Shown: one piece after another, positions 9,357 through 61,531 of the stretch | Layout of the letters: each line of letters begins with the position of its first letter | Numbering within the stretch: position 1 is the stretch's first letter | NCBI RefSeq assembly: GCF_009914755.1 | Contig: NC_060934.1 | DNA: 64,000 nucleotides | DNA from: the human T2T-CHM13v2.0 reference genome, Homo sapiens | Reading direction: 5' to 3' (one strand) | Translations under genes and position numbers: made by a program | Notes under the pieces: model-generated | Databases searched by the model: none | What the model was told of the DNA's origin: nothing | Seen by the model: only the letters and a program-made list of their open reading frames with translations

Positions 9357-9358
9357 TT

Positions 9359-12584: not shown

Positions 12585-15500
12585 ATCCCTTACAAAACAA
12601 CAACTCCTTTCCTTCCTAGGCATGGTTAGTGCAGTCAGAATTCTTACACAAGAGCCAGGACCACACCCTGAAGCCTTTCTGTCCAAACAACTTGACCTTA
12701 CTGTTTTAGCCTAGCCATCATGTCTCCGTGCAGCGGCTGCTGCCACCCTAATAGTTTTAGAGGCCCTCAAAATCACAAACTATGCTCAACTTACTCTCTA
12801 CATTTCTCATAACTTCCAAAATCTATTTTCTTCCTCACACCTGACGCATATACTTTCTGCTCCCCGGCTCCTTCAGCTGTACTCACTCTTTGTTAAGTCC
12901 CACAATTACCATTGTTCCTGGCCCGGACTTCAATCTGGCCTCCCACATTATTCCTGATACCACACCTGACCCCCATGACGGTATCTCTCTGATCCACCTG
13001 ACATTCACCCCATTTCCCCATATTTCCTTCTTTCCTGTTCCTCACCCTGATCACGCTTGATTTATTGACGGCAGTTCCACCAGGCCTAATCGCCACACAC
13101 CAGCAAAGGCAAGCGATGCTATAGTACAAGCCACTAGCTCGCCTCTTAGAACCTCTCATTTTCTTTCCATCGTGGAAATCTATCCTCAAGGAAATAACTT
13201 CTCAGTGTTCCATCTGCTATTCTACTACTCCTCAGGGATTATTCAGGCCCCCTCCCTTCCCTACACATCAAGCTCGAGGATTTGCCCCCACCCAGGACTG
13301 GCAAATTAGCTTTACTCAACATGCCCCGAGTCAGATAACTAAAATACTTCTTAGTCTAGGTAGACACTTTCACTGGATAGGTAGAGGCCTTTCCTATAGG
13401 GTCTGAGAAGGCCACCGCAGTCATTTCTTCCCTTCTGTCAGACATAATTCCTCAGTTTAGCCTTCCCACCTCTATACAGTCTGATAACAGACCAGCCTTT
13501 ATTAGTCAAATCAGCCAAGCAGTTTTTCAGGCTCTTAGTATTCAGTGAAACCTTTATATCCCTTACGGTCCTCCGTCTTCAGGAAAAGTAGAACGGACTA
13601 AAGGTCTTTTAAAAACATACCTCACCAAGCTCAGCCACCAACTTAAAAAGGACTGGACAATACTTTTACCACTTTCCCTTCTCAGAAGTCAGACCTGTCC
13701 TCAATGCTACAAGGTACAGCCCATTTGAGCTCCTGTATAGATGCTCCTTTTTATTAGGCCCCAGTCTCATTCCAGACACCAGACCAACTTAGACTGTGCC
13801 CCAGAAAAACTTGTCATTCCTACTATCTTCTGTCTAGTCATACTCCTATTCACCATTCTCAACTACTCATACATGCCCTGCTCTTGTTTACACTGCCGGT
13901 TTACACTGTTTCTCCAAGCCATCACAGCTGATAGCTCCTGGTGCTATCCCCAAACTGCCACTCTTAACTCTTGAAGTAAATAAATAATCTTTGCTGGCAG
14001 GACTATGCTGAATCTCCTTAGGCACTCTCTAATCAGATGTCCTGAGTCATCCCAATTCTTAGACCTTTTATACCTGTTTTTCTCCTTCTCTTATTCCATT
14101 TAGTTTTTCAGTTCATACAAAACTGTATCCAGGCCATCACCAATAATTCTAAATGACAAATGTTTCTTCTAACAACCCCACAATATCACCCCTTACCACA
14201 AAATCTTCCTTCACCTTAATCTCTCCCACTCTAGGTTCTCACACTGCCCCTAATCCCGCTCGAAGCAGCCCTGAGAAACATCGCCCATTATCTCTCCATA
14301 CCATCCCCCAAAATTTTCGCTGTCCAAACACTTTACCACTATTTCATTTTATTTTTCTTATTAATATAAGAAGACAGGAATGTCAGGCCTCTGAGCCCAA
14401 GCTAAGCCATCATATCCCCTGTGACCTGCACGTACACATCCAGATGGCCGGTTCCTGCCTTAACTGATGACATTCCACCACAAAAGAAGTGAAAATGGCC
14501 TGTTCCTGCTTTAACTGATGATATTGTCTTGTGAAATTCCTTCTCCTGGCTCATCCTGACTCAAAAGCTCCCCTACTGAGCACCTTGTGACCCCCACTCT
14601 GCCCGTCAGAGAACAACCACCCTTTGACTGTAATTTTCCTTTACCTACCCAAATCCTGTAAAACAGCCCTACCCCTATCTCCCTTCGCTGACTCTCTTTT
14701 CGGACTCAGCCTGCCTGCACCCAGGTGATTAAAAGCTTTATTGCTCACACAAAGCCTGTTTGATGGTCTCTTTACACGCACGTGCATGAAATTACCGTTA
14801 ACTACAAAATGAATTTCATAAAAATTAACAATAATCATTTTTAAGTGAATTTGAGATTAACTGAAAAATTAAGTCATTTAAAAATATCATTTTATATTCA
14901 AGTTGTATTGAAATTTCCCAGATTGTCTCAAAAATGGCTTTTGGCAGTTAATTTGTTTAAATTGGGATCCAAGCAAGGTCCACACACTGTGTTTGATTGA
15001 CATGTTCCTAAATCTCTTCCTCTGTAGCAGCTTCCCCTCTCGCTTCTTCCACACTAATTATTAAATAAACCAGGTCATTCATCCTATAAAAATGCTCACA
15101 TAAAACTGATGGAATTCCCTTGGTATCATTTAAAGTATTTCTCTATCTTGTATATGTACTGTAACTAGTAGTTCGTTTGAGAGGCTTGGTGAGATTCAGG
15201 TGTGTCTTCATTAGGCCCTGGGGACGGGCCGCATGCCTGGTAGCCTACAGCCCTGGTAATTTTCACACCTTGCTTACTGCTCTCAAGTTAGCTGCAGACT
15301 CCCTTTTTTTTTTCTTAAAGGACTATGTATGTAATAGCATTTTACACATTTGAAAAGGCTATACCAATTCAAATTGTAGGTAAAATAGAGTATCGAATGG
15401 CTTGGAATCTGGTTGCTCAATGGCAGGCTAAGAGGAGAAAGGTACCTGGGAGAATGTTTACAAGGGTTTGTGCTCCAGGACTGGAGGAAAGAAAGGGGCA

Positions 15501-17136
15501 AATATTAGAGTTGTGTAAAGATCCAGTTACTTCAGAAGCACTGACCTCTGTACTATGCCTAGGGCTAGGGGAAATAAAGCAGAAGCTAAAGGAAGATTCT
15601 GACACCGGGTTGAGTTGCATGGCTATTTATTTCCCCAGGCTCATCATTGATGGCAGTGATGGGAGTGAATAATAGAAATTCTCCTGTTCAATACAGCCTT
15701 CAGATTTTGTTGACTCTGGAACTCTCCAGAACAAGCAGGGGGGCCTTAGGAACAGGAGAATAATAATTCATGCCAAGTTATTGTTTCTCAGTCTTTTAAA
15801 ACCTAAGCTCATGTTAGATAAACAAAAAATTCTCATGTCCCTCCTGGGGTCTTCTCCACTTGGTAAAAGCAATCTTTTCTTTCATAGACCCTCTGGCCAA
15901 GAAGATTTTGTAAATCTTCACTTTCTGTAGATTGTGTAATAAAAATGATAGATGTAGCTTGTGTTGTGTTGTTTTATACTTTTTCCCAAAAATACATACT
16001 TATAACACTAGATGGGCTTCTTTCTTTTATGCATGCTTTTCTGTGAGTTCTGCCCTATGGGATTTGAGTGTCATACTCAGGAGAGTAGAGTCTACCAGAT
16101 TTTATTCCAATAAGGGAGGCCAAATGTCTATATAGTCAGGGCCAAAGATTTTTGGCAGATGTTTTCTTCCTTATACAGCCTATTTTCTATGTTTGAGTTT
16201 TGCAAACATTTAGCCTTCACATACTCATATATTTCTCTTTACTTTTATAGGCTTTTCTCCCATTCATTTACTTAACAAGCATTTATTGAGTTATCCTTAT
16301 GTGCCAAGCATTGTGCTAAATAATGAGGCTATATAATAAAAAGATATATAGTCCCTATTCTCAAGGGACACACAGCATTGAAGAGGGCACAGGAGAGGAG
16401 ATCACTGATTTTAATACTGCATGACAAGGATTATAACAGAAGCAGACACAGGGGTGAGAGAAGCACAGAAAAGAACCAGCTTTCTCAGCTAGTCTTAAGA
16501 CCTTTGCTCTCCACACATTGATCTCCTATGGGAACAATAACTACAGAGAGAGAAAACAGTGGGTTTTCTTTTCTGAATTCTGTGGTTACCACACATATGT
16601 TGTCATAAGCAATCTCACTTTGGAATTCAGAGTACTTTATTTTTCTGGAAGCTATGGTCCTGGAGAATAGAACTGACATTTCATTCATCCGTACACACAT
16701 ACATCTACCCATCAAGGATGTATTGACTGTCATCTGAAGCCAGAGAAGCAGTAATTTCCTTGAGGGTGCTAGACCAAGGGAGCAAAGGCCATGCCCAATA
16801 GATTTAGGACAAATCCAACCAGACCATGACTAACCCACTCACCTCAGGCTCCTCTCGGACATAGTCCAGTGGCCCTAACTGGGTCAATTGCAGAACAGTG
16901 TCCATTGAGCATGAAGACAGATGCAATTACCAAACTTTAATCCATCATTTAGGAATAATCACAGCAAACCTAACATTTAAAATAACTTAAGGCTAGAAAC
17001 GTGAGTGTGTGAAGGAAGAAAAAAAAGTCACTTAAAGATAAAGAAAAGAGCATATTGGCAGCGGGCAATGCTTCCCGACGGTTCCTTTATGTCAGACAAG
17101 ACTCTCACACTCTTTATTCAACTAAGAACTCGGTCC

Positions 17137-17462
<326 letters not shown>

Positions 17463-17815
17463 TCAATCCAAGTCGCTATATTGCAAGTGTGGGAAAAGGG
17501 AAGAGAGTGATTCTCATCTGGCTTAAAAATGAAAATATATGCGTATATATATAGCTTCTGGAGAGCAGAAAGGAATTTAAATTTTATTTCTACAGCAAAA
17601 CATTTTTAAGTCAACCAATCAGAATTAGACCTTTCATAAGATGAGGGCTACATTCATAGACTATAACGTCAATATCTAAAGTCCAGGTGTTTTACCAAAG
17701 TCTTTTTAGCATTTGGAAATAGCACTTACAGCAACATTTTTATTATGCATGATGCCATTTACTTTTTCTCTGAAGCTGCAGGGGAAATATGCAACATTTT
17801 CTGTCTTATTTACAG

Positions 17816-17930
17816 AAGTTTCTTTCACCAGCACTTACAAAGGCCCATGAATTTTCGAGGCCAAAAACTGTAATTCCATTGGTTATCACAGAGAGAAAGA
17901 AACAGGCCCAAGGCACCCAAAACAAAAAAC
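17816..17930 (+). pseudogene. Relic A, candidate PNLIP exon-4 equivalent
   Basis: Good acceptor ttatttacag. KFLSPALTKAHEFSRPKT resembles LSDPSTIEASNFQMDRKT, and it lies in the correct order. Confidence 0.4.
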
Positions 17931-18532
17931 TTGAAAAAAGAAAAATGCAAAAGACAAATGGAACATTTGGCCGGAAGACAAATGGAACATGTTGATATTT
18001 TGTACCAGCAATGCAGATGACATTTTCTGAAATCTTAGAAACAGAAGTTTATTTCTGTTTGAACTTCCACAATATCTTAGAATCTAATATAGTGAATAGA
18101 GCATAGAATGGTGAATTAAGAGGATCTGGGATCTAGTTCTGATTCCAGCATCAATTAATGAAGTGGACTTGAGCAAATCTATTCTCCCCTTTAATCTTCA
18201 GTGTATCCATCTGTAAAACGAAGATAACATTCATGATTTCTGGGGTTACTTTCTTATTGTGAAATCCTTGAGGAAAATTAGGTTACAGAATGTGTACAGG
18301 AATGACTGGATAGATGGATGAATGAATGAATGACTCAGTCAATCAATACAAAAGAAGCTTTGGATTTTCATGTGTGGTCATAATTCTCCCCAATCATATG
18401 CAGCTATAATTACATATTTTTATGTTTTAGTGATGTTTACTGATTGCACCAAATAAATTCTAATTTTCCAAAAGTTTGATTTGTCTTTTTATTGTGGAAA
18501 GCCTTAGTTGACTTTAATAGATTTATTACAGT

Positions 18533-18549
18533 GCCCTCTAGTGGAAGAA
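18533..18549 (-). promoter_or_regulatory. CTCF-like motif in relic A intron 4
   Basis: The minus strand reads CCACTAGAGGGCAC; the same 17-mer occurs at 49623-49639. Confidence 0.65.
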
Positions 18550-18922
18550 TGAGCATATTGTGTCATCCTGCCGCTGCTTAGTAATCAACAAACCTCTACA
18601 TTTCACACATTTTTAATGAATCAAACCTCTATGCTTCTTGCAGTGAAATTTTCAGTTTTCAAGATCTCACTTGGATTAAAATTCTGGTTTATAACCAATC
18701 TTGAAATTTAGCAACAACAACATGTATTAAGGTAGAATATCATTTTTTAAAAAAACCCTCTCCTAATTATTGACTGATGCTCTTGGAGTAAGTGTACATT
18801 GGGCTATATAAAACATAAAGGACAAACCTCAATGCGTTCTCCAAATGCATGAATTACAACCAGGAAAGAAAGAAGATTCTGATATCCTGAACTCTTTGCT
18901 GGTTTACCATGTATGTTTCTGT

Positions 18923-19054
18923 CACATGTTTCAGGTGGGACAGGGACAGTACCCGTGGAACGCAGAAGAGGAGCACCAGGATGGAGAAACTCTAGCCTCA
19001 CCGACTGTTTAGGTTGTGAGAGCACACGGGGCATGTGCTGTGGGAGTTCTTCAG
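18923..19054 (+). pseudogene. Relic A, PNLIP exon-5 equivalent
   Basis: MFQV...LASPTV*VVRAHGACAVGVLQ vs LFKV...QASQNIRIVGAEVAYFVEFLQ; 132 nt; donor decayed to ctatct. Confidence 0.75.
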
Positions 19055-19762
19055 CTATCTGTCCTCAGGTTACATGGGAACTTACCATCTTACTCACTGG
19101 CCTCGGCTTCAATGTAATTGCTGTTGGTGTAGTAATCAATAGACATTTCTCCCCAGAAATTGAACTTTCCTCTTGATTGATCAGCAACTGAAAGCATATG
19201 AGGGAAATATTTAAGCTCTGCCTACAAACCAATTTCACACAATTAACTGGTCAGTTTTGTTTTTAAAAAGTGACAAAGGCATTTTAGTCAAGCAACAAAG
19301 ATGATGTTTTAAAGCAGAATTTCTCCAGTTACTGATTTCAATTTTAATATATCAACATACCAGATACCAACATACCAAAATATAACATTGGTTTGTATGT
19401 ACAGAGAGTGTTATGGAGTAAATAAAAAGCTAAAAAGAGATGTGATAACTTGAATTCCATAGGATTGAATAATTACCTTAATTAGTACCTTCTAGGACAA
19501 CATCTGATGTGATTAGTTTCTATAACAACTCTTCATGTTAAATTTAGATCACTCCTCATAGCAAAAGGATAATAGAAAGTTCTATGTCAACTGGCTTAAA
19601 AAATATATTTGCATTTTTTAATGTAACTATGGAAAAAAATCCATGAGTAATAAATCTTTGGGGTGCTGAAAATTCTTGCATTGAACAGAGCAAAATCCTG
19701 CCATCTCTCTAGCTTTTGTCACCTGAGTAAATCACGTTTCCAGAGGTTCCCTATATCTTTAA

Positions 19763-19871
19763 TTCTAACACTTCATATTCTTTTTCCCTATTTACATCAT
19801 TGGCAACAGGATAGGCTCCTACCCCATTGAGGAGGATAGGAGGATAAATGAGAACAGTGGGTGAATCACAG
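19763..19871 (+). pseudogene. Relic A, PNLIP exon-6 equivalent (nucleophile elbow)
   Basis: IYIIGNRIGSYPIEEDRRINENSG*ITG vs [29 protein letters not shown]; intact phase-1 donor G|GTGAG. Confidence 0.85.
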
Positions 19872-19936
19872 GTGAGCAAAAACAGTGAGCACTGGAAAAT
19901 GTATGACACTAATATACTCAGTGTAGTCCAGGCTAA

Positions 19937-21460
<1,524 letters not shown>

Positions 21461-21469
21461 GTTATTCTT

Positions 21470-24045
<2,576 letters not shown>

Positions 24046-26759: not shown

Positions 26760-27132
26760 CTTCTATCTCTCTTTCTTTCTCTTTGACTTCTTCTTTGTCT
26801 CTTTCTCTCTTTCTGACTCCCTCTTTGTCTGTCTCTTCCTCTCTCTCTTTGACTGTCTCTCTCTTTCTCTCTCTCTGACTCCCTCTTTGTCCCTGTCTCT
26901 TCCTCTCTCTCTCTTTCTGACTTTCTGTCTCTTTCTCTCTTCCTCTCTGTCTGACTCCTTCTTTGTCTGTCTCTTCCTCTCTCTTTCCTTCTCTTTCTTT
27001 GACTTTGTCTTTCTCTTTCTGTCTCTCTGACTCCCTCTTTGTCTCTCTGTCTCTTCATCTCTGTCTCTTTCTCTCATTGACTTCCTGTCTTTTTCTCTCT
27101 TTCTCACTCTCTGTCTCTGTCTCTCTGTCTCT
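26760..27132. repeat. CT/GA-rich low-complexity tract inside HERV9
   Basis: Degenerate ctctctctttctgactcc repeats. Confidence 0.9.
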
Positions 27133-33279: not shown

Positions 33280-34118
33280 GTGATTTGTTTGCATCTCCTT
33301 AACATGCACTAAGGGCCTGAGAGTGGCAAGTGATGATAAAGTGAGAAATCACGAACACTTCCTGTATCTCAGGCTGATAATGGCGCGTGTGTTCATTACT
33401 TCAACAAGTATTTATAGAGTTGCTCTTGTCCAGGCCCCATGTTTGGCAGCAGGGTTCAAAAGAAGAAAATAAACATGGCCCTCAGCCTCATGAGGTTCAC
33501 TGTCCCACACTTCACAGAGAGGGTTCCATCAAGAGGTGAGCATTTAGCTTGGAAGTTTCAGAGGAATGAAGGAATGAAACAATGTTGTTTGCATGCACTT
33601 GACAAATAGGAAATGTAACATTTACTATCATTTCCTTGGAACCCCTGCTTCCTTCTTAACAATGTGCTCTGAGGATGGAATCAATCCTTTGGCCTCAGCA
33701 AGCATTTTACTTAGTAGCAAGCCTTCTCAGCTGATGTCTTCTCGCACCATTTGTGGGTTTATTCTTCAATTGAGCTCGTTAATTTGTACAATTTCTTGTT
33801 ACTCCTGTGTTTGTTTCCTGTGTTTGTTACATCCCCACTTCACTAGAAAGAATCAGTGGCTCCAAAGTTGTTCAGTGAGAGGCGAAATCAGAGATGACAA
33901 TAGCAGCGTAAGTACCAGGCACAGAAGCGTGTAATAAACCAAAACCCAGCCTTGGTTCAAATGAATCTGAAAGCATGAGAGAAGCCAACTGAACAGCAAA
34001 ACTTTTTCCATCTTCCTTCAGGTCTATAGTGTGTGAACATTTCTCCAGCAGTAGCGTCAAGTTTTTGACATTCTCATGACATTTTTAAGCAAAATATGGT
34101 GGCCTCTTGATTAAGTGT

Positions 34119-34437
<319 letters not shown>

Positions 34438-34499
34438 TAAGTGTATTATTTTTTAAACAAGCAGAAAACAATACCTTCCAGAATTAGGTTTATAAATAG

Positions 34500-35345
34500 G
34501 ATATGAGTTCAAGAGTACACAGGCATCATTCAATGTTGCAGCCCTTATGGCAAAAACAGGTGCAAGTCGCAGTATCGCAGAGGAGCTTGTAAAACCAGTC
34601 TCAAAGTCAGTGACAAATATTTTTGAGAAAACAGAATAAGCTATCGGTTAAATGCCTTTTCAGATGAAGCTGTTGGATGTTGCATCATATCACTAGTATA
34701 CCATGTGGAATTACTATCACTTGTGCACACCAACAGGCTTATACAGTTGTACAAAACCATCGATACGTAAAGTAGCACGAGGGAGAAGTGTGATGACCTT
34801 TTGTCCTCTGTATTGTGGAAAGCCCATGCCAAAAGGAGCAAAGATTTCCACCTAGCTCAATGGTTGGTGTGTGAGCCATAAGATAAACTGGAAGAGGTAT
34901 ACTGGGATCAATACAGACAACACCAGCTGTGTTTGCAGCAAAGAGGCTGGAGGACACAACTGAAAAATATGGCACCAGAATGCCAGTTATGCATGGCTGA
35001 ATGTGCAAAGAACAGTTGGTCTACAAAATGCCTTCTGATCCTGAAATGGTGTTGAGAAAGATTGTGAAATTTTTGATATGACAATATTGTGGCCACGGAA
35101 TATGTGTTTAGCATGCTGTATGAAGAAAAGAACTCCGGTTCTGAAGGGAAGTGTGTTCATGTTGAAGAAGAAAAAAGTGTGTTCAATATCCCTGATGATG
35201 TCTGTTCCGTTATTTCCAATGAATGATCTTAGCAATAGATTTATTTTCTTGAATAGACTGAACCTCTCACTTCTTGGATAAAATACCACAGTTTTTAATG
35301 CTGAGGGGAAAAAATATAATTTTTAAGAAGAGAAAAATATGGTGA
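34500..35345 (+). mobile_element. hAT-Charlie/Buster-type transposase remnant
   Basis: DLSNRFIFLNRLNLSLLG*NTTVF resembles hAT LADIFxxLNxLNLSLQGKNTTIF; further degenerate DE, TD and HC-x-H-like motifs in order. Confidence 0.6.
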
Positions 35346-44390: not shown

Positions 44391-44504
44391 CAAGGCCCTG
44401 CTTCTGGCCTCAAGAACTTAGGAGCTGATGGACAAGGCAGACGCTGTACACACAATCTCCAATTCTCTTCTCCAGAAGATCTTTTCTGACTCCTTTTTTC
44501 CTAG

Positions 44505-44569
44505 ATGGAATTTTCCAAGTTGAATCTCAGTTTACTTTCCTTCTCATCATTTCATTGGGCAGCCTGTAA
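44505..44569 (+). pseudogene. Relic A, candidate terminal exon
   Basis: Strong acceptor ttttttcctag; WNFPS vs FNFCS; ends ccTGTAA after 65 nt (PNLIPRP3 last coding exon here is 64 nt); AATAAA near 44904. Confidence 0.5.
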
Positions 44570-45261
44570 CTTATTTTTCCTTTATTATTTGACCACGGCT
44601 CCTTCTGTTAGCTCACTTTTTTCCCTACATTAGTGCTGAGAGGTAAATGCGCTGGTTATATGTTATTCTAAGCTAAAATAACACCCGTTTTTCTAGAATG
44701 ACTGAATGATCTTGCTGGGTTAGCAGTGAGTGAAGAACTATTGCTAATTTTCTGTTTTTGACCTTGCTATGAGTTAGACAAGCTGTTCATAGAAAAAGTA
44801 TGGGCAGGTAATTTCTTCATATTTATTTTCCAGGCAACCCTAATGGGCTTTGTGGTCACAAAACCCTTTCAGCCACAAGGATGTATATGCTGGAAATTGT
44901 GGAATAAAAAAACAACTACACTGAAAAAGTGACTCATTTAAGCACTGATTACCCAGTTTTAAAAATAAATTTTATGTGTGCATTTATGACCTTTCCTCAA
45001 TTGTTATTGATGTAAGCTTTTCAGTGGTTTAAATTGGAAATATATCCTGGAAACCTCTCTTTTCTTGATCTTTTTCTATGGAATTATAGGAAAAAGCAAA
45101 CATTTACCTATAAAAGGGCATTTATACTCTGGCATGGTATCTGAAACCTCCTGGAGCTACTTGGTGAGGTGAAAAATGTGCCATACTTAATTAGGTAATG
45201 GCAAATGTTTTTTACATATAAAATTTATTTCATATCTATTTATCTATATTCAAATTAAACT

Positions 45262-46840
<1,579 letters not shown>

Positions 46841-46899
46841 TTATGTAACGGATAAAACTGAATATACTGAGTATTTTCCTTTGATATCTATTTTCATAG

Positions 46900-47053
46900 A
46901 GTAGTTTTAGAAACTCGAAAGAACTCATATTGTTTTGCTCATAAGTAGCACTTGCATCCAGGGGACCCTCAAACTCAAGCCAGAGATGGAAAAGCTCAGA
47001 CATGCATGAAAAGGAAAAACTTCTGGTCACAACGGGAACCTTAAGTGCTCAAG
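46900..47053 (+). pseudogene. Relic B, PNLIP exon-3 equivalent
   Basis: ttttcatag acceptor and GTAAAG donor, 154 nt. ER..CFAH..GTLK..LLVT.GN vs ERLGCFSD..GTLQ..LLYTNEN. Confidence 0.55.
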
Positions 47054-47276
47054 GTAAAGCCTAAACCATTAATGAATTGACTGAATTAATGGCAATGGCC
47101 ATCTATCTTGAATGGTAAAAATGAGTCTGAAAGTATGGCTGATCTGAGAAGTGGCAGGAAAAAGACAGCTTACTTCCTTAGAAAAGAGCATTCCTGCCAC
47201 CCATACAGAAGTGAAATTGTTGAAGCACTGGTTTGAATGATTGTTTGTGGGGTCCTGGGAGAAAAGCCAGAAGGGA

Positions 47277-47348
47277 AGAAATACCTGCTATGAACTTCAT
47301 TTTAACTCATCATGGATCATTTGACAAAGTCACATTCTAGAAAACTGT
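47277..47348 (+). pseudogene. Relic B, candidate fragment of exon-4 equivalent
   Basis: agaaatacctgct...catcatggatcatttgacaaag resembles the coding sequence of RKTRF-IIHGFIDKG. Confidence 0.35.
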
Positions 47349-49622
47349 TATCCTTGAAATTCATTTTCGGAGGTTTTCCAAAGACCCCCGAGTGGGAAAG
47401 ATATTAACACCTGCTTACCTAATGATAACAAAAATAACTTTCCAGGAAAACTACTAATTAGTCTTATATTTTATGCCTGTATATTGTATCTAATCAAAAC
47501 AAGCTAAACATGCAACTTTAAAACATTTATGACACTGCAATCTTATCTTGATATATGCGTACCAGAAATTATGGCCCCATTCTCACCAAAAGATGTGTTC
47601 AAAAATGTTATAGTGGCTTTATTTTAATAGCCCAAAGTCAGAAACAACCCATACCTATTAGTAATAGGTGGCTAAATAAATTGCGGTATATTCATGCAAT
47701 GAAATACTACATAGCATTGAAAAGAAGCATCTAATTAATATGCACAACAGCAGGAATGATTTTCATAGACATGATATCGAGTGAAAACTGTCAGACCCAA
47801 GAGTACAAATCATATGATCTTTAGAATCAGTAAACTCAAGTATTGTGTTCTATAATTTAATTTTAATTGATTTATTGTGTTGATATTATTCTTTTTTAGT
47901 TGATATTATTCTTGTTCTCCCATTTAACAAATATATTCCATTATTAGTTGCTTTTTTTCCTATGAAATAGGGATTTTAATAGCACCTGCCTCATTGGGTT
48001 GTTTTTTAAAATCAACTTTGTTATAAACTTTATTATTTAAAATAAATGGCACCTATTCAAAGTGTCCAATCTGAAGAAGTTCAAAAACGATAAAAGTAAT
48101 AGTCAAAGGTGATGTAGGTCAGAATAGTGACTCCTGGGAGTGGTTACTGAATGGGAGGGGTCCTAAGGAAGTCTTCTCATTGTTAGAATCTTCTATATCT
48201 TTATCTGAGTGATAGTTACATGGGTGTTTACATGTATAGAAATTAATCAAAGGATGCATTTAATATTTGGGTACTTTACTGTACTTAGCCCTTAATTTTA
48301 AAATATGTTAATTTTTTAAAAATCTAGATGGCTTTAGATAATGAGATTTTATATTTAGAAATCTTTAGAATCAGTAAACTTGAGTGTTATGTTATATAAT
48401 TTAATTGTAATTGATTTATTATGTTGATATTATTTTTAAGTTGATATCATTCTTGTTCTCCCATTTAATAAATATATTCCATTATTATTTGCTTTTTTTC
48501 TATCAAATAGGGATTTAAATAGCACCTGCCTCATGGGGTTATTTTTAAAAACCAACTTTGCTATAAACTTTATTTAAAATAAATGGCACCCATTTAAAAT
48601 GGCCAATCTGATGAGTTCGCACAGTGTGTTAGCCCGTGAAACCATTACCATGATCAAGGTAGACTCCCGGGAGTCTCCTCTTGCCCCTTTGCAGTCCATT
48701 TTTCCCTCCACCTGGTTCCAGGCAACCACAAATTTTCTTTTTGTGCAAAAAGATTCGTTTCCATTGTCTAGGATTGTAGATAAATCGAATTGCGGTGTGT
48801 ATTCTTATGTGTCTGGCTCCTTTCACCCAGCATCATGCTTTCAAGATTTGTCCATGTTGTTGCATTTCACAATAGGCCACGCCTTTATATTGTGGAGTGT
48901 TATTCCATTGTATGGATATGCCACATTTGTTCTTCTGCTAACCTGTTGATGGACATTTGGAGAAGCCAGGGACATCATGGGAGAACAGAAGTGTGTGGCT
49001 GTAGGAACACAGTTCCACATAACAGTGAAGAAAATGGCCATCCTACCTGCAGTATTACCCAAAAGTCAGGTGGTATGGGACTTTTCCTAGGACTTGAGAA
49101 TCAGAGGTAAAATTATTTATTGTAGATGGTAGATAGGTGGATAGGTAGAGATAGAGGATGCTATTACATTAGAGAATAGTGGATGCTTAGGGCACCTGGC
49201 TCTGCCCCCACAGAGTAACTGGTGATCTTGTCCCGGGCAAATTATTTCCCTTCCTTGAGCCTCAGTTTCTCCATCTATAAAACTGAGAATGTTTAGGATT
49301 ATTTCCAAGACTCTTTCCCTTAAAAATATAATAATATTTAAACAGGTAAGAGTGTTTGTAAGTTATGTTATTATTCTTTTAAAAGTTTCCATTCATCATT
49401 AACACTGTACATTTCTATTTTTTATTTTGTTGACATTGTCTTCTAGTCATAGTTCTCTGCCTTATAAAGCTCTAATCGAATATCTGCATGCTTTTCTGTG
49501 AAATAACTTTCCGCCAATGTACCATAATGGTATAGATTCAAAAGCCTTTTTGATTAAAGAGAATATTGATCTTTTCATCTTAAAAAAAAATTTCACATCC
49601 CTTCAATGTATTTAGTTGAGGG

Positions 49623-49639
49623 GCCCTCTAGTGGAAGAA
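49623..49639 (-). promoter_or_regulatory. CTCF-like motif in relic B intron 4
   Basis: gccctctagtggaagaa, identical to 18533-18549. Confidence 0.6.
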
Positions 49640-49983
49640 GGTGGACATAGCATGACAACAGTGGCTGCTTACACATTTAATAGCCAGTGATACGTTTTAT
49701 TCATTTAAAAAAATCCCGTGCCTATATTACAGTAAAATTCTCAATACTCAAGTTTTCACTCAGGTTGAACTTCTAGTTTGGATTCCGTATTAAAATGTAT
49801 CAGAGACTACATATATAGGAATATGACATTTAATTTTTTATCCCGACTATTGGTTGTTACTGTTAGATTAGCTTTGTGGGCAAGAATGTAAAAAATCGAT
49901 GAAATTTTATCTTATCCTCAAAAATGTATTAAAGGAGAAAACACCTGGGTCCTGAATGATTTTCCAGTTTTGTAGATGGTTCC

Positions 49984-50075
49984 TGCGTTTTTCAGGTGAA
50001 AAAGATGAACACGTGTGTGGGCTGGAGCAAAGAGTGGTGGGAGGCAATGAGGCATTTCTTGTGAGTGTTTGCCAG
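49984..50075 (+). pseudogene. Relic B, PNLIP exon-5 equivalent (internally deleted)
   Basis: FQVKKMN..CVGWSK..VVGGNEAFLVSVCQ|GTAAC vs FKVESVNCICVDWK..IVGAEVAYFVEFLQ|gt. Confidence 0.8.
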
Positions 50076-50838
50076 GTAACTATATCGCAGTCACATGGGA
50101 ACCCACAGGCTCTGCTCTCTGGGGTGTTTCCTAAAGCAATGCTCTAGGTGTGATCAATGACACAGTCACTCCCCCAGGAGCACTGGCTTTACCCATTATT
50201 CAACAGGAAAATACTGTGAATGACAACTATTTTTAGCTTCAGTCAGAAGCCAATTTGACCTCATTTACTAGTCTTTTCTGTTTTTAGAATTGTAAATATA
50301 GCTAAGGCAATTTAATTAAGGAATTAATCTCATCTTTAAACTGAATTTCATGTGTTATCAGTGTCAATTCTAATAAATTGGTATAATTCATCCAAAATAT
50401 TAAATAGGTTGTGTTATAGGAAACTCATGGAGTAAATGAAAAGCTAAACTTCCTATAAGAAACAGATATGCTTGAATTTCATGGGGTTAAGTCATTATTC
50501 TCATTATTGTTTTCTTGAAGAAATTCTTTCTAATAACAATTTCCTGCAATGATTCTTATTAAATTAACTCCTTCTTCATAGCAGAGGGACAAGATAATGA
50601 CCCATGACAACTACCTTAAGAGTTAGATGTACTGTTATTTTCTCATATGACTATGAAGAAAAATAGCTAATGAATATTTGGAGTGCTTTTATATCTTCCC
50701 TTAATTGGACCCAAATCCCATTATTTCTCTGTAGATGTTATTGTCAGGTTATCTTGGCAAATCAAGGAGCCAGAGGCTCCCATTACATACACTATTTTAT
50801 TACTGGCTCATTCTGGCACATTCTGAAACCGTTTACTC

Positions 50839-50949
50839 TCCAAAAGTGGACACTGGTCTTCTGAGATTCACATCGTTGGAGACCACTGGGCTCCCACTCT
50901 CCTGGGGAGGCTGGAAGGAGAGCAGATGAGGCCATCGGGCGACTCACAG
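50839..50949 (+). pseudogene. Relic B, PNLIP exon-6 equivalent
   Basis: SEIHIVGD-(1-nt frameshift)-LGSHSPGEAGRRADEAIGRLT vs [30 protein letters not shown]. Confidence 0.93.
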
Positions 50950-51966
50950 CCTGTTCATCTGGCAGCCCAGGGCAGAACAGGCAGCACATTTAACTTCAAA
51001 TAGTTACATATTCGCCTGGGAGAGTGGTTCCCAAGTGTTTTCAGTACAGGAACACAGGATCCAGTTTTGAAGGGTTGAGAGTGAGCATGATTGTGTTTTA
51101 TTGATACCGATAGCGGGGTTGGCAGAACATGTTTCACACATAAATACTATCTGAGACTCAAAAGTGATTTGGGGACCTCATCTGCATCCACGCCCACTCA
51201 GCTGGCCATTCCCAGTGTCCCAGTTCCATGATGTAATTTAAGTGGAATTAAACTTGTAGAGCTAGAAATTGTATAGTTCTTCACAGCCAGCTTCCACTGC
51301 AATCACTCATAGATGCAGAGCTACCAGCTGAACTCCAGGTAGTGTCAATTACTCAAGAAGGAAGGAAAGGAGGTCAGACCCTTCTGGTTCTTATTCCCTG
51401 AATAATGACATTAAAATGGTGTGGGCTGCAGAATCCCTGGGCCATCTGTAGGCAACCGAGGGCTACCTGTTATCTGCTACTCTGGCTAACAATGTCAACT
51501 TCGTAGATACAAATCACATGGATGCAACTCCCATAATCCCCCAGTGGATGAGGGGCACTTCGGGAACCAGTAACCCTCTTCCTGTTACTTCCTCTCTGTG
51601 CTTATGTGAGTCTCTTATCTCTCTGTGGCTTTCCTAAAACTCATCAGTTCTTCAGGAAATTTGGTTGTCTTCACATATCCTAGAAGAGATATTTGATATT
51701 TAGAATTTCTAGCAGGTTATTAGCTGAAGAGGCGTTCTCCATCACAGCTGAGCTGCTTTTATGGAACCAGCATCTCCCACCTTTGGCAGAATCTTAGTAA
51801 TTGCCCAAGGAGGAGATAATCCTCAGAGTTAAGCAGCCTTAGATATTTGCAGCAGCTGCCCCTTCTTGGCCACTTAGCAGGGGCTGTGCTAAGCCCTTAC
51901 ATGCATTATTTTATATATTCCCCACAATAACTCCGTGATGAAGTTACCATTATTGTTCTTACTCTA

Positions 51967-52488
<522 letters not shown>

Positions 52489-53069
52489 CTATTAACATGA
52501 CGAGTGTGTCTGGCTCGAAGACCCAGCTACCCAATCCAAGTAAGGACACCAAAGACCATAGCAATGCCAACCACCAGAAATCAGAGCCTACTGCATCTTC
52601 TATAGGTTTGGAGAGGCCAAGGAGGACTCAACACACAAGGCACTGGTTGGATCAATGCTTTACTCACAGGAAGAAGAGACCAGCATCAAGGGTACCCTGT
52701 GGTGTGCACCCACCTCCCATGGCCAGAAGTCCTTCCCAATAGCCAACGCAGGGTGAAGGGCTGAACACAGATCTCTTGGGCTGCTGGAGAACACCCACAT
52801 TCCCTTGGGTGGTGTGGTGGTAGAAGATATACTGGTGAGGCTGGCCATGTAGCACACACTTGAGCAATACAAGGAAGCTCACTCTGTACCCAGAACAGGG
52901 GCGAGTTTTCTCCTAATTAGGAAAAAGCATCAGAGAACAAGCAACAGCTCAGCACTTAGCTTCCATATAGAGGAATGTTCCACGCCCAGGGCTCTGATGG
53001 AGCAATCCCAGAGAGGGGCAGGCAGTTCTCATGATGGTTGCTTTCCCAGCAGTGTAAATATTTCTTTAG

Positions 53070-53168
53070 AATTGGATCTTCCCAGCTTGAAGAAGCCTGA
53101 AGATGCCGCTGATGCTCTATCTGTAGATGCAAACTATGTAGAGGGTGGTACCATAACCCCCAAATAGA
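53070..53168 (+). pseudogene. Relic B, PNLIP exon-7 equivalent
   Basis: tttctttag acceptor; LD...ADALSVDANYVEGGTITPK* vs LDP...SDAKFVDVIHTDGAPIVPNL. Confidence 0.82.
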
Positions 53169-53249
53169 GGAGCTCCTGGACCCCAGTTTCCAAGGATGAT
53201 CAGCTATTATTGCTCAGATGGCAATTTTATTAACTTCCCCTTCTCCTTC

Positions 53250-53550
53250 TTTTTTTTTTTTTGAGATGGAGTCTTGCTCTGTCGCCCAGGCTGGCTGGAT
53301 CGCAGTGGCACTGCGTTGGTTCACTGCAACCTCTACCTCCGAGGTCCAAGCAATTCTCCCTTCCTCAGCTTCCTCAGTAGCTGGGATTACAGAAGCCTGC
53401 CACCACGCCCAGCTAATTTTTGTATTTTTCAGTAGAGACGAGGTTTCGCCATGTTGGCTACGCTGGTGTTGAACTCCTGACCTCAGGTGATCTGCCTGCC
53501 TCAGCCTCCCAAAGTGCTGGGATTACAGGCGTGAGCCACTGCGCCCGGCC
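53250..53550 (-). mobile_element. AluS in relic B intron 7
   Basis: Full reverse-strand Alu. Confidence 0.9.
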
Positions 53551-53568
53551 CCTTTTCAAGTATATTAG

Positions 53569-53855
53569 GTTTGGGGATAAGTCAAATTGGGGCCATCCAG
53601 ATCAGCATCTCTCAAACTTCAATGTGCTCACAAAGTCCTATGGAGATCCTGTTAAAATACAGATTCCCATTCAGCAGGAACAAGTAGCTTTTGCATTTGT
53701 AACTAGCTAGCTCTCAGGTTCTGCCAAGGTTGCTGGTCTGCAGACCTCACTTTGAATAGCAAGAATCTATATTTCTTCCAAGTAAAGGAAAAGAAATATC
53801 ATATGCAAAAAGAATTCTCTCTTCTATTCTGTAAATAGAGAATGAGTCTGGGACC
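53569..53855 (+). pseudogene. Relic B, PNLIP exon-8 equivalent, interrupted by MER5A1
   Basis: [11 protein letters not shown] [MER5A1] FFPSKGKEIS-CKKNSLFYSVNRE*VWD vs [40 protein letters not shown], allowing frameshifts. Confidence 0.9.
53603..53764. mobile_element. MER5A1 (hAT-Charlie MITE)
   Basis: ~160 bp, cagcatctctcaaactt...cactttgaatagcaag; decayed 8-bp TSD atccagat / atctatat. Confidence 0.82.
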
Positions 53856-54305
53856 ATAAAACCATTTTGTGTGTAGAAAGATTTTTTCCAGGAAAATATT
53901 GTTTTGCCAAACTTGCTAAATATTATCTAGTTCTTATTTTATTTAATGTATAAGGACTTCAAACATTGTTCCAAAGACTGCCAGTGTTCTGTGAGTATTC
54001 TGCCAGGGTGAATGAAGAAAACTGTTGGAGAAAGAATGTTTATTATAAACATTTCATTGAGCTAATCTAGACTATCCATTAATGAGTAAGACTCATCTAA
54101 ATGAATCAATCTTTTTCTCTAAGTTTGTTTCACACTTTTATCTATGACCTATTTGAAACAGCTCTTGGGAACTACAAAATGAGTCCTAAGGCTGTAATGT
54201 CACAGTGTGATTCTGATCCAGTTGCAATAATGCCTATCTCGTTATATCCTGAACAGGATACTAACTAGAAAAAAAATGGTCATTAATGTGTAATCAAGTC
54301 CGATT

Positions 54306-54414
54306 TTATAAGAGAATTTATAGTGTGTCAACAGCTAAATGATTTTTCCAGTAATATTCTCAACACAGATATCTTTGCAGGATATCCTTGCCCTTCCTGT
54401 AAAGTTTCATAAGG
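54306..54414 (+). pseudogene. Relic B, PNLIP exon-9 equivalent
   Basis: REFIVCQQLNDFSSNILNTDIFAGYPCPSCKV vs [35 protein letters not shown]. Confidence 0.87.
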
Positions 54415-57395: not shown

Positions 57396-58794
57396 CTAGA
57401 TGATACAAAAATGAACGTCTTTATATTCAAGTTTGGTTTGGTGAGGTTCTAGGCTTTTCTTTTTGGAACAGATTTTGAAATACACAGCAGTTTCACTGAA
57501 CACATTGAGATGTCTGTGTGGGCAAGGTGAAGTGTCCGCTGGAGAAAATGCAGTGCAGCATTGCTCTGTGGAATCCCTGGGCAGCAACTCTGCAGCTCCA
57601 TGGGCAGCCTGCCCCGGGGAAATAACATTTCAGTCAACACCCCAAACCCAATACGTTGTATCAGTGTTCCCCCCAAGCGTGTGTGCCGTGAGTCACCAGG
57701 GGAGGTTCTGAAAAATACAATTCCTCAGTACCACCCCCGAAGAGTCTGATTTAGTAGATAAGAGTGCATCCCAGGAATCCAAACTTTACAGAAGTTCCCC
57801 GGATTTGGAGCTATTGATTGATGTGCCTCTTGTTTTTGCAAATGCCTTATTGGATACTCTATGTAAAGCTATGTGTGAGCAAGACAAACCCTACCTTTTC
57901 AGAGAAATCAGTCATAATGGACTCAAAAAGTCATCATAGCTAATAAAATCCTAATAGTCTCAAAAAGAAACTTCCCAACACCTACTCAGAGAGGCCTGAT
58001 TCCCCCTTCAGTACTTAAAGGCTGTGATCAGCAGAATAACAGTCCCCTCTGCCCAGATGTCTGCATCCTAATCTGAAGAATCTGTGAATATGTCATGCTA
58101 CATGGAAAAAGGGAATCAAGATTGCAGGTGGCTTTTTTTTAAAGCACTGCATTTCTCTGCAGAGAATAGCACAATACCACATGTGAATGCTTAGTAAATG
58201 TTTACAATTATAATTACTATGAGGACTTCATGAAATTTTCTAAACATTCATGATAATGATGAAAAATGAATAATAAAAAACAATGAAGAAATAGGGTTAT
58301 GTGCAAATTTTCTCATTTAATAAGAAGACAAAGGAGTGTAAATTTTTTTATATATCAGTTAAAAATCCTTTTGTTAAGAAAGATATCCACTTTTATCATA
58401 ATGAAGTCATTTACAAATTGGTTTAATTGTTTCAAATGAATGGTTTACTCAAATAATTTAAGTATTTCTGAACTTGGTACTTTTTTTGAAAATACTGCTT
58501 TTAGAGTCCTAACTCAAATTTTTTTCCTCCCTTAAGAGATGAGCTTTATGTCAGTTTGAAAGGATGCTGATAATGTTAGAATACATGATGTAAAATGGTG
58601 GTAGAGATGATGGTAAGGAGTTGATAGATTCATTAATTCAGTAAGTGCTTAGAGAGTGTTGACAATGTGCCAAACCCTAATTTAGATATTGGAGAGCTAG
58701 AAGTTGAAAATACAGACATGATCCCTACACTCATGAAGTTTTCTGATTCTTTGATGTTTCTTAAAGTGTGGTCAATCAAACAGAAGACAGATGA

Positions 58795-59280
58795 TGAATC
58801 AGTTGGCTAGCACTGCATAACAAGCCACCCCAAAAACTCAGTGACTTGAAAAATAATCATTTATTATTGTTCTATGAGTCAACTAGACTGTTTGGCTGAT
58901 CTGGGCCAGGGTTGGCTGATCTTGCTCGGTCTCACTCGTATGTTTGTGGCTGGTTGGCAGAGGCCTGAATGGTTTAGGGCAGCCTTGTGTGCATCAGCTT
59001 TCCTCCACATGATCTCTCATGCTTCAGCATGCTAGCCTGTGCTTTTGAACTTGGACTCCCAGGGGTCCAAGAAAATGAATATAAGTAAGAATGACCTCTT
59101 GAGGCCCAGGCTCAGAAGCAAAGTGTCATTTTCACGACATTCTACTGGAGAAGGAGGTCACCTGGCAAATTCAAATTCAAGGATAAATTCTACTTATTGA
59201 TGAAGGTAGCTAAAAAGCCATATTGCAAAAGACATGGATACAGAGAGAGGTAGGCAGTTAGAGCATTTTTGGAATCAATC
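58795..59280. mobile_element. Old MLT1 LTR
   Basis: tcagttggctagcactgcataacaagccacccc...; recognised by eye. Confidence 0.65.
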
Positions 59281-59595
59281 TAGGTGGCTTGTTAGTTTTA
59301 GTAGAGAATGTGATGAAACCATTTTGTTGACCTACGTTTGACAGATCTGAGTTGTGAAAATTCTTATGCTTTTCACAGAAATCCTTTTCACTTCTTAATA
59401 ATTGTGGCCATCCATGGTGCAGAGGCCTTTGACAGTTTGCCTCAGCACCATTTCCTCACCTGAGAAGAGTTCTCATGGGCCAATGTATTTTCACAACCCT
59501 TGTGTACTGGCTCATTATCATTTGTCAAATTTCTATTTTATATTATACCTATTCTGAGTTAGATTCTCATTTTGGGGTATTTAAAAAAAGGATAG

Positions 59596-59964
<369 letters not shown>

Positions 59965-60526
59965 CTAGCTCAGAAACCTAAATAGTGAACAATAAGTTCA
60001 TAACCTAAATAGTGGACAAGACTCAAAGGAGAATCCCCCATATGAATCTCTGTCTTGAAACAAGCGGAAAATGGGATGGTGCTAACAGGGTACACAGCAA
60101 TGATGAGCTAAACTTGGCTGACAGTAGATCCATATTCATTTGTCCTGTAGTGTCCTGCCCACTACTCCCAGTCTGCCTTGCTTTTGTCATGAATATTTAT
60201 CCTAAGTGGAGTTGATGATGTTGCTGTTTTCATAATATTTTGAATAATACTAGAGACTGTTCAGATAAATAAATTTAGTCACTTTTTTTTCCAGAACAAA
60301 CAACAAATAATGCTTTGCAAGAAGAAATGAATTAATTTTTTTTCTAGTTTAGCCACTGATTACAAGGAATAATTTAAAGGATACAAATGAAACAGTTAAA
60401 TGAAGAGACACACAGGGCAAGGTTTGGAAGGGTCCCAAGCTCAGTAAAATTGATTAATTTTGTGGCTAACAGTGAAAATCAACCCAAGAGTACACAGACA
60501 TTATTCAAACTTAACATTTCTTGTAG

Positions 60527-60811
60527 TGGAAACTTGCAAATCATGCTGTCACACGGAAGCTATAAAACCAGCCAAAATGATAATGATACGATATTGCGAG
60601 AGAAAAGGAAGAATGAGTTATCAGCCAAATTCCCTTATCAGATGACCACCTTAAACGTTACATGGTATCATTGGCATATTGTTTAAAATTACTCCCCAGA
60701 GTGTGCTGGAGAGATGTCTCACATTGCAATCGGATGGCCCCATTCGTGCAGATTTGGAATTGGTTCCTGGCACACAAGGCACAAGGAAGAGTGCTTTACA
60801 CTCTTTTTTGT
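60527..60811 (+). pseudogene. Relic B, candidate exon-12 and exon-13 equivalents
   Basis: ttgtag|T GGA AAC TTG has the same phase and start as the PNLIPRP3 exon at 4924; TWY..LPRV vs IWY..LPRV; VLYTLFC vs VLLTLTPC. Confidence 0.55.
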
Positions 60812-61531
60812 CTACTTGATTTTGTCTACTTGATCATTGAATTTTCACAATTAAACATTGTTTTGTGAGCCATAACACAGACTGAAAACAAGGCCCTGGG
60901 ATCTGCAGGTTTAGAACCCCAACTGTGTTTGCATCAGGGAAGAATGTGGCTGTTAAGATATAAAAGGTGGCAAAGAATTCTAAATCTCAGAGACCAACTG
61001 ATGATCAAGTAAATGCTTCATGTTCCTGATTGAATGTTGAAAGACATAGTGAAAATGGTAAATTCAATAGAAATCTCTCTTAACCTCTGCCTACCCAAAT
61101 CACTGTTTTCACTCATGTTCCCCATTCTTACGGTCAACTCCTTTCTTACCTCTGAGTCTTTTGATTGTCTCACCTCCTTGAAACATTTTCTTCTCTCTGT
61201 CTCCAGGACACCACTTTCTCTTGGTTCTCCTCTGTCCTCACTGGATGCTGTTTTTCAAATCCTTAATTTCCCTGTGCTTGTAACATTGCAGAGCCTCAGT
61301 ATTTAGTACTTAGAAACATCTTTCTAAGAGATCTCATCTACACTAATGGCTTTATGTAAAACCCAAGTTGGTATTTCTTACATGGACCTCTCTTCTGAGC
61401 TACAGATAACTGCCACCTCTCCATCTCCACTTAGACTCTAAGAAGACATTTAATTTTAACCATGCCCAAAACTGAACTTCGGATCTCCACCCCAAGCCTA
61501 CTCCACTGACGTGCAGCCTTCCCCATCTTAG

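What the first reader, a model, noticed from the sequence alone, without database searches (positions are those of the whole stretch)
18533..18580. Identical CTCF-like motif kept in intron 4 of both dead genes
Seen: gccctctagtggaagaa (minus strand CCACTAGAGGGC) is identical over 17 nt at 18533 and 49623, and gctgctta follows 23-24 nt later in both, while neighbouring exons and introns are heavily diverged. Known: CCACTAGAGGGC fits the CTCF core. Inference: gene duplication multiplied a CTCF site that outlived the coding function. The result could be a same-orientation insulator array separating PNLIPRP3 from the highly active acinar PNLIP locus.
Basis: partly seen in the sequence, partly recalled or inferred. 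Interest (0 to 1): 0.75.

Follow-up and report, generated by a model that had tools for sequence, protein, structure and literature searches.

The report
CTCF-type motif in two lipase-gene relics
Two very old, decayed copies of a pancreatic-lipase-like gene between PNLIPRP3 and PNLIP each keep the same CTCF-type DNA word at the matching spot in an intron, but the sequence alone does not show that it was preserved by selection or that CTCF binds it.

Summary
GCCCTCTAGTGGAAGAA is exact at 18533 and 49623, with 0 expected by chance in the window and 5 copies in the whole genome.

The two "dead genes" are also real, though RefSeq does not list them. Both sites lie in colinear relics of PNLIP-like genes, which align to PNLIP and PNLIPP1 across exons, introns and flanks. 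A Pfam Lipase search sees nothing in the window. By my exon count, the motif sits about 340-365 nt upstream of the exon-4 relic. That puts it in intron 3, not intron 4.

The word is a good CTCF consensus. Its 12-nt core is printed as a CTCF-matching motif. Site A is the best match in 220 kb to a published 20-mer, at 17 of 20 positions; site B scores only 13 of 20.

Excess conservation is not shown. A 17-nt run has P of about 0.12-0.35, and two other equally old paralogue pairs have runs of 18 and 15.

CTCF binding, cross-species conservation and insulation could not be tested here.

Verdict: a plausible inherited pair of CTCF sites and an ordinary kind of feature, with function unproven.

The parts
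18528..18549 (-). Site A. CTCF-type motif: the shared 17-mer at 18533-18549, the 12-nt core at 18533-18544, and the 20-mer match at 18528-18547.
   Evidence: Exact 17-mer. 17 of 20 positions match the published CTCF 20-mer (PMC7946360 Table 3); this is the single best match on both strands of 220 kb. 3 mismatches to the published 14-mer. No CpG in the 17-mer (read directly).
49618..49639 (-). Site B. The same 17-mer at 49623-49639 and the core at 49623-49634, with a weaker flank.
   Evidence: Exact 17-mer. 13 of 20 positions match the 20-mer and there are 4 mismatches to the 14-mer; both are my hand counts on the sequence. 319 positions in the 220 kb also score 13.
18573..18580 (.). GCTGCTTA, 23 nt after site A.
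   Evidence: One of four 8-nt runs in the A-B alignment, with six runs longer than it, so it is unremarkable.
49664..49671 (.). GCTGCTTA, 24 nt after site B.
16520..19888 (+). Relic A of a PNLIP-like gene, detectable part. Intron-3 pieces at 16520-16593 and 18436-18526, exon-4 relic at 18914-19054, intron-4 piece at 19425-19684, exon-5 relic at 19790-19888.
   Evidence: Lenient blastn to PNLIP and PNLIPP1. Exon-4 mapping with indels. The exon-5 peptide is 38% identical, has an in-frame stop, and reads GNRIG where PNLIP has GHSLG (E 0.03).
44459..54409 (+). Relic B of a PNLIP-like gene. Upstream homology at 44459-44721 and 45028-45123; possible exon 2 at 47385-47441; intron-2 piece at 48342-48475; exon-4 relic at 49975-50075, which has a deletion of about 40 nt; exon 5 at 50818-50949; exon 6 at 51488-51541; exon 7 at 53767-53921, with an in-frame stop; exon 8 at 54243-54409.
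   Evidence: tblastn: exon 5 E 1e-5, exon 6 E 0.009, exon 7 E 4e-4, exon 8 E 2e-5, exon 2 only E 0.08.
18512..19751 (+). Main A-B homology block, A side. It starts 21 nt before the motif.
   Evidence: 59.6% identity over 1289 columns, 189 bits.
49601..50781 (+). Main A-B homology block, B side.
33392..35069 (+). Distal colinear blocks of duplication unit A. They are homologous to B 58629-61054 and to DNA 3-4.5 kb downstream of PNLIP.
58629..61054 (+). Distal colinear blocks of duplication unit B.

Best explanation
Shown: the PNLIPRP3-PNLIP spacer holds two tandem, very old, decayed copies (A and B) of a PNLIP-like gene unit. In both, the 17-mer lies at the same position of the intron before the exon-4 relic. 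The two copies were therefore inherited from one ancestral sequence through tandem duplication. The word is a CTCF-type core, read on the minus strand in both.

Inferred: at least site A, which also has the flank of the 20-mer consensus and no CpG, is probably occupied by CTCF in some cell types. It would then act as a reverse-oriented stop for cohesin arriving from the PNLIPRP3 side. Site B would be a weaker second stop.

Not shown: that selection preserved the word. Paralogue comparison cannot tell mild constraint from lucky survival.
For: - Paralogy: colinear same-strand blocks link 18.5-35.1 kb with 49.6-61.1 kb.
- Both copies align to PNLIP and PNLIPP1 exons, introns and flanks.
- Exon peptides are recognisable and carry stops and indels.
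- The motif flanks are homologous in all four copies.
- Motif quality: the exact 12-mer CCACTAGAGGGC is printed as a HOMER de novo motif matched to CTCF, score 0.861 (PMC6909351, table passage).
- Site A matches 17 of 20 positions of AYAGTGCCMYCTRGTGGCCA (PMC7946360 Table 3). That is the top score among all positions on both strands of 220 kb.
- A recalled degenerate 12-position core occurs only 3 times in those 220 kb. Two of the three are these sites.
- Genome-wide, the 12-mer occurs 619 times against 43 for the reversed control word. The control contains a CpG, so the excess is overstated.
- A perfect forward match to CCACNAGGTGGCAG (PMC5291250) lies in PNLIPRP3 at window -27009. It is the only zero-mismatch site in the 220 kb, and it is convergent with A and B.
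Against: - No occupancy, cohesin, Hi-C or cross-species data could be consulted.
- The 17-nt run has P of about 0.12 to 0.35.
- A-PNLIP shares an 18-nt run and B-PNLIP a 15-nt run at the same depth of divergence.
- The flank that raises A's score is not shared by B, which scores 13 of 20.
- Against the rigid 14-mer, A has 3 mismatches, as do 47 other positions in the 220 kb (48 in all, A included), and B has 4.
- Local G+C is low, 0.32-0.39 within 50-250 nt either side.
- PNLIP and PNLIPP1 tolerated a repeat insertion at this very point.
- RefSeq lists no functional element at either site (hub table).
- Literature searches found nothing on CTCF at this locus.
Confidence: 0.5

Rival explanations
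1. Neutral survivor. The ancestral intron happened to hold a CTCF-like word. Both copies kept it by luck, and it is unbound, or bound without consequence.
For: The run-length tests are not significant (P 0.12-0.35). Comparable runs of 18 and 15 nt occur in A-PNLIP and B-PNLIP. The flanks of A and B differ. The context is AT-rich. The site was disrupted by a repeat in the active paralogues without apparent harm.
Against: The longest A-B run coincides with a high-information motif that occurs only 3 times in 220 kb. My estimate for joint retention of all 12 core positions at 55-66% identity is about 0.001-0.007, computed by hand. That figure is post hoc.
Confidence: 0.38
2. The motif belongs to an old interspersed repeat, so the two copies are repeat copies and not a kept regulatory word.
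For: PNLIP and PNLIPP1 carry a dispersed repeat exactly here (40 genome matches). By eye, the A and B flank looked vaguely similar to the end of that repeat. One of the three other genomic copies of the 17-mer has a flank that I recognised, from memory only, as transposon-like.
Against: A profile built from 29 genomic copies of that repeat finds 22 places in the 220 kb, but none at A or B. It still finds none with all filters off and E up to 100 on the two sites alone. The unique-sequence flanks on both sides are colinear with PNLIP. The genome holds only 5 copies of the 17-mer.
Confidence: 0.04
3. The patch is a different conserved element of the ancestral intron, for example a site for another factor, and its likeness to a CTCF motif is incidental.
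For: The 15-nt B-PNLIP run lies 8 nt from the motif. A patch of about 40-45 nt is better kept across paralogues than its surroundings.
Against: A is only about half identical to B in that neighbouring patch (read). PNLIP and PNLIPP1 split the patch with a repeat. No Rfam family matches either region.
Confidence: 0.05
4. A short gene-conversion patch between A and B made the 17 nt identical recently.
For: The identity drops abruptly on both sides of the run.
Against: The copies are 31 kb apart and about 55-65% identical, which is a poor substrate for conversion. The next-longest A-B run is only 11 nt. A 17-nt tract would be unusually short.
Confidence: 0.03

Closest known systems
Clustered CTCF sites at domain boundaries (Kentepozidou et al. 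2020, PMC6945661; abstract read)
   Same: Several CTCF-type sites lie within tens of kb of one another, between differently regulated neighbouring genes. Extra sites near an existing one are the pattern that paper describes.
   Different: Here the copies arose by duplication of a whole gene unit, not by new acquisition. Binding, cohesin and a boundary are all unverified. The spacing of 31 kb is wide for a 'cluster'.
Canonical CTCF core motif (CCACNAGGTGGCAG, PMC5291250; AYAGTGCCMYCTRGTGGCCA, PMC7946360; CCACTAGAGGGC, PMC6909351)
   Same: The 12-nt core is letter for letter a printed CTCF-matching motif. Site A adds the flank of the 20-mer.
   Different: Site A has 3 mismatches and site B has 4 to the rigid 14-mer (the B value is my hand count). 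Site B lacks the flank.
Unprocessed pseudogenes of the PNLIP cluster (PNLIPP1 in the hub's table)
   Same: A and B are tandem, same-strand, intron-containing remains of a PNLIP-like unit. They align with PNLIP and PNLIPP1.
   Different: They are far older: about 54% identical to PNLIP, against 79% for PNLIPP1. They are invisible to a Pfam Lipase search and are not in the RefSeq table.
Transposon-borne CTCF sites
   Same: A CTCF word multiplied by the copying of DNA.
   Different: Tested here and not met. No repeat profile covers the sites, and the copying agent was tandem gene duplication.

Membership tests
CTCF binding site | Match to the core consensus | tested here: met
   The exact 12-mer is printed as a CTCF-matching motif. 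It is one of only 3 strict-core matches in 220 kb (the core pattern used there is recalled).
CTCF binding site | Match of the extended 20-mer, including the flank | tested here: inconclusive
   Site A scores 17 of 20, the best in 220 kb. Site B scores 13 of 20 (hand count), as do 319 other positions.
CTCF binding site | Occupancy by CTCF in cells (ChIP-seq, footprint) | not testable with these tools
   No ChIP data were available. Literature searches found nothing. One supplement was searched without a hit.
CTCF binding site | Constraint on the motif beyond its surroundings | tested here: inconclusive
   Only paralogues could be compared. P is 0.12-0.35, and other pairs show runs of 18 and 15 nt. 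Cross-species alignment was not available.
Insulator / domain-boundary CTCF array | Several sites in one orientation, with a convergent partner | tested here: met
   Met at the motif level only. A and B are both on the minus strand. A perfect forward site lies at window -27009 in PNLIPRP3.
Insulator / domain-boundary CTCF array | Cohesin retention and a drop in contacts across the sites (Hi-C or Micro-C); an effect of deletion | not testable with these tools
   No data available.
PNLIP-family unprocessed pseudogene | Colinear homology to the exons and introns of a lipase gene | tested here: met
   For B, five exons (4-8), plus a doubtful exon 2 (E 0.08), two intron pieces and the upstream region. 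For A, exons 4-5 and intron pieces.
PNLIP-family unprocessed pseudogene | Disabling lesions | tested here: met
   In-frame stops in A exon 5 and B exon 7. A deletion of about 40 nt in B exon 4 and indels in A exon 4.
PNLIP-family unprocessed pseudogene | Recognisable Lipase (PF00151) domain | tested here: not met
   0 of 65 genome-wide exon matches fall in the window. 0 of 148 scanned ORFs hit Lipase or PLAT. An intact control exon scored only 16 bits there, so sensitivity is low.
Transposon-derived CTCF site | The site lies inside a copy of an interspersed repeat | tested here: not met
   The only repeat family tested was the one inserted at the homologous point in PNLIP. Its profile gave no hit at A or B. 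No Dfam library was available.

The most novel reading that the evidence does not exclude
Tandem duplication of a PNLIP-like gene multiplied an intronic CTCF site. The genes then decayed beyond Pfam recognition, while selection kept the two reverse-oriented sites. Together with the perfect forward site inside PNLIPRP3, these sites form nested convergent loops of about 45 and 77 kb. The loops confine PNLIPRP3-side cohesin and keep the very active acinar PNLIP domain apart. On this reading, gene carcasses survive only as architectural anchors.
Probability: 0.15. Interest if true: 0.55.

Novelty: new member of a known kind. Interest (0 to 1): 0.3.

Why it matters
If CTCF does bind here, the locus would be a clean natural example of regulatory architecture outliving the genes that carried it. 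It would also show a boundary built by gene duplication and not by transposon spread. The idea is easy to test, because the two anchors are single, well-defined words. Independently of that, the spacer between PNLIPRP3 and PNLIP is not anonymous DNA. It holds two unannotated ancient lipase-gene relics, and this refines the history of the pancreatic lipase cluster. If the sites are unbound, the case shows that a 17-nt identity between old paralogues needs no selection to explain it.

Tried and rejected
1. Pfam scan of + strand ORFs. I sent 148 ORFs plus 2 control exons. Those 148 came from 456 kept ORFs, out of 579 of at least 30 aa; 123 were dropped because at least half of each was self-repeat. 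The scan covered 9294-28534 only. It gave no Lipase or PLAT hit. Sensitivity was poor: one intact control exon scored 16 bits and the other scored nothing.

2. Whole-frame Pfam scans. I did not resend either.

3. tblastn of the PNLIPRP3 C-terminal exons against the window. Nothing was found beyond the gene itself.

4. A remote protein search with that spliced peptide, typed in.

5. Genome search with PF00151. No hit fell in the window, so the relics had to be found at nucleotide level.

6. Genome DNA search with 18450-19800. It returned only itself, so there are no near copies elsewhere.

7. Repeat origin of the motif. Rejected.

8. Rfam on both regions. Nothing.

9. Earlier findings of this scan.

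10. Literature. Searches (lipase cluster pseudogenes; CTCF at this locus) gave nothing relevant. One search, a recalled 15-letter IUPAC string, matched 0 papers. The supplement of PMC13399162 had no mention of the locus.

11. The GCTGCTTA 8-mer as a second module. Rejected as an ordinary run.

Full report
**The observation**

The 17-mer GCCCTCTAGTGGAAGAA stands at 18533-18549 and 49623-49639 on the + strand. Even with up to 2 mismatches allowed, these are the only 2 matches in the window. None were expected in 100 shuffles.

GCTGCTTA follows 23 nt later in the first copy and 24 nt later in the second.

In the whole genome the 17-mer occurs 5 times, and the reversed control word 0 times. The three copies elsewhere have unrelated flanks. 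The word is therefore not part of a common repeat.

**What surrounds it**

- A stringent self-comparison of the window shows only Alu- and L1-type repeats between the two regions.
- A lenient one (+1/-1 scoring) shows that 18512-19751 aligns with 49601-50781 at 59.6% identity over 1289 columns, 189 bits.
- Five further same-strand, colinear blocks reach 35069 and 61054.
- I rebuilt 220 kb of chr10 from the window and 16 fetched stretches, then compared these blocks with the annotated lipase genes.
- Copy A aligns with PNLIP intron 3, exon 4, intron 4 and exon 5.
- Copy B aligns with the region upstream of PNLIP, intron 2, intron 3, and exons 5, 7 and 8.
- Both copies also align with PNLIPP1.
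- At protein level, B keeps recognisable exons 5, 6, 7 and 8 (E from 1e-5 to 0.009; exon 7 has an in-frame stop).
- A keeps an exon 5 with an in-frame stop, in which the catalytic-serine motif GHSLG reads GNRIG.
- The exon-4 relics are 18914-19054 in A and 49975-50075 in B. B's has a deletion of about 40 nt.

- A genome-wide six-frame search with the Pfam Lipase model finds 65 exon matches and none in the window.
- A Pfam scan of 148 ORFs finds none either. That scan has low sensitivity, because an intact control exon scored only 16 bits.
- The RefSeq table lists nothing there.

In a four-way alignment, A-B, A-PNLIP and B-PNLIP are each 53-54% identical, while PNLIP-PNLIPP1 is 79% identical. 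A, B and the PNLIP lineage thus separated at about the same remote time.

**Which intron**

The exon just downstream of the motif corresponds to the PNLIP exon that encodes Lipase-model positions 92-139. I counted back from the hub's statement that the three PNLIPRP3 exons in the window are exons 10-12 of 12, and placed the eight Lipase-model exons before them. Seven of the eight are seen for PNLIPRP3. By that count this exon is exon 4. The motif lies 365 nt (A) and 336 nt (B) upstream of it, which puts it in intron 3, not intron 4. This numbering is my inference. I did not see a transcript table for PNLIP.

**The homologous point in the living paralogues**

With A, B, PNLIP and PNLIPP1 aligned, the flanks on both sides of the motif are homologous in all four. 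PNLIP and PNLIPP1, however, carry a segment of about 125 nt exactly there (window 78660-78785 and 110435-110557) and have no CTCF core.

That segment belongs to a dispersed repeat family: it has 40 matches on many chromosomes, which is a lower bound. From memory it looks like the tail of an old LINE or SINE. That name comes from no call.

I tested whether the A and B word itself derives from that family. A profile built from 29 genomic copies finds 22 places in the 220 kb, but none at A or B. It still finds none with all filters off on the two sites alone. I reject the repeat origin. Rfam finds nothing in either region.

**Is it a CTCF motif?**

On the minus strand both sites read CCACTAGAGGGC.

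- That exact 12-mer is printed in a table of PMC6909351 as a de novo motif matched to the HOMER CTCF matrix, score 0.861 (passage read).
- Against the 20-mer AYAGTGCCMYCTRGTGGCCA, given for CTCF in Table 3 of PMC7946360 (passage read), site A matches 17 of 20 positions.
- That is the single best score on both strands of the 220 kb. Three positions score 16, fifteen score 15, and 319 score 13.
- Site B scores 13 of 20 (my hand count), because its flank differs.
- Against the rigid 14-mer CCACNAGGTGGCAG (PMC5291250, passage read), A has 3 mismatches. 48 positions in all, A included, have 3. B has 4.
- The only perfect match to that 14-mer in the 220 kb is a forward-strand site inside PNLIPRP3, at window -27009.
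- A recalled degenerate 12-position core occurs three times in the 220 kb: A, B and that PNLIPRP3 site.
- Genome-wide, the exact 12-mer occurs 619 times, against 43 for its reversed control. The control contains a CpG. By base composition I estimate about 150 expected (hand calculation), so the true excess is a few-fold.
- The 17-mer has no CpG.
- Local G+C is low, 0.32-0.39.

**Is it kept more than chance allows?**

- In a global A-B alignment of 1616 ungapped columns at 65.6% identity, the exact runs are 17, 11, 10, 10, 9 and 9 nt.
- An independent-sites model at that identity gives P(longest run at least 17) = 0.35.
- A geometric fit to all other runs gives P = 0.12.
- The equally old pairs have comparable outliers. 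A-PNLIP share 18 nt in intron 4 (19522 / 79737). B-PNLIP share 15 nt, ending 8 nt from the motif (49600 / 78630).

Run length alone therefore does not show selection.

What remains striking is that the longest A-B run is a high-information motif that is otherwise almost absent from the cluster. My hand estimate for joint neutral retention of all 12 core positions is 0.001-0.007. That figure is post hoc, because the motif was noticed precisely because it survived. Cross-species data, which would settle the matter, were not available.

**Mechanism**

Shown: one ancestral intronic word was copied with the gene unit, and both copies point the same way.

Inferred from the motif and from the general loop-extrusion model (recalled, not tested here): reverse-oriented sites stop cohesin coming from the lower-coordinate side. 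They would pair with the forward PNLIPRP3 site to give convergent loops of about 45.5 and 76.6 kb, leaving PNLIP (from 73962 of the extended coordinates) outside. Sites in a single orientation make a one-sided barrier, so full "insulation" of PNLIP would need more than these two sites.

I put the chance that CTCF binds at least site A at about one half. I put the chance of a selected boundary function at about 0.15.

**Comparison with what is known, and novelty**

CTCF sites clustered near boundaries are well described (PMC6945661, abstract read). So is the higher rate of differential expression between tandem genes that are separated by CTCF sites (PMC13399162, passages read).

A site multiplied by tandem gene duplication and surviving in pseudogene remains would be a new member of that known kind.

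My searches found nothing in print on lipase-gene relics in this spacer or on CTCF at this locus. The library does not cover most subscription journals.

**Verdict**

The feature is plausible but ordinary in kind, and its function is unproven.

Noticed in passing
L027:8992-9005 (window coordinate -27009, outside the window, inside PNLIPRP3): This is the only perfect match in 220 kb to the published CTCF 14-mer CCACNAGGTGGCAG. It is on the forward strand, about 200 nt downstream of the PNLIPRP3 exon that encodes Lipase positions 90-139, and it is convergent with sites A and B. It scores 16 of 20 against the 20-mer.
   Followed up: partly
window 10300-14320 (+): An ERV-like stretch. ORFs there hit Gag_p30 (E 0.0011), retroviral protease RVP (1.7e-9), reverse transcriptase RVT_1 (3.8e-18), zf-H2C2 and integrase rve (6.5e-4), and the frames are broken. 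I only observed it.
   Followed up: no
L016:4660-4785 and L019:6435-6557 (window coordinates 78660-78785 and 110435-110557): An old interspersed repeat is inserted in PNLIP and PNLIPP1 intron 3, exactly at the point homologous to the motif in A and B. It therefore entered the PNLIP lineage after that lineage split from A and B, or was lost from A and B.
   Followed up: yes
window 19522-19539: An 18-nt exact identity between relic A and PNLIP intron 4 (window coordinate 79737). It lies within a block of 64.6% identity over 274 columns. It is longer than the run under study and is unexplained.
   Followed up: no
window 23729-24040 and 48720-48928: These stretches are 63-68% identical to DNA in the 3' part of PNLIPRP2 (window coordinates 168946-169258 and 172550-172754). 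I did not resolve whether they are old shared repeats or further remains of the duplication units.
   Followed up: no
window 25553-25666 (+): A 38-aa ORF gives a weak sub-threshold Pfam match to Toxin_35, a knottin family: 19.6 bits against a cut-off of 26.8, E 9e-4 for a single protein among 150 scanned. It is most likely chance.
   Followed up: no
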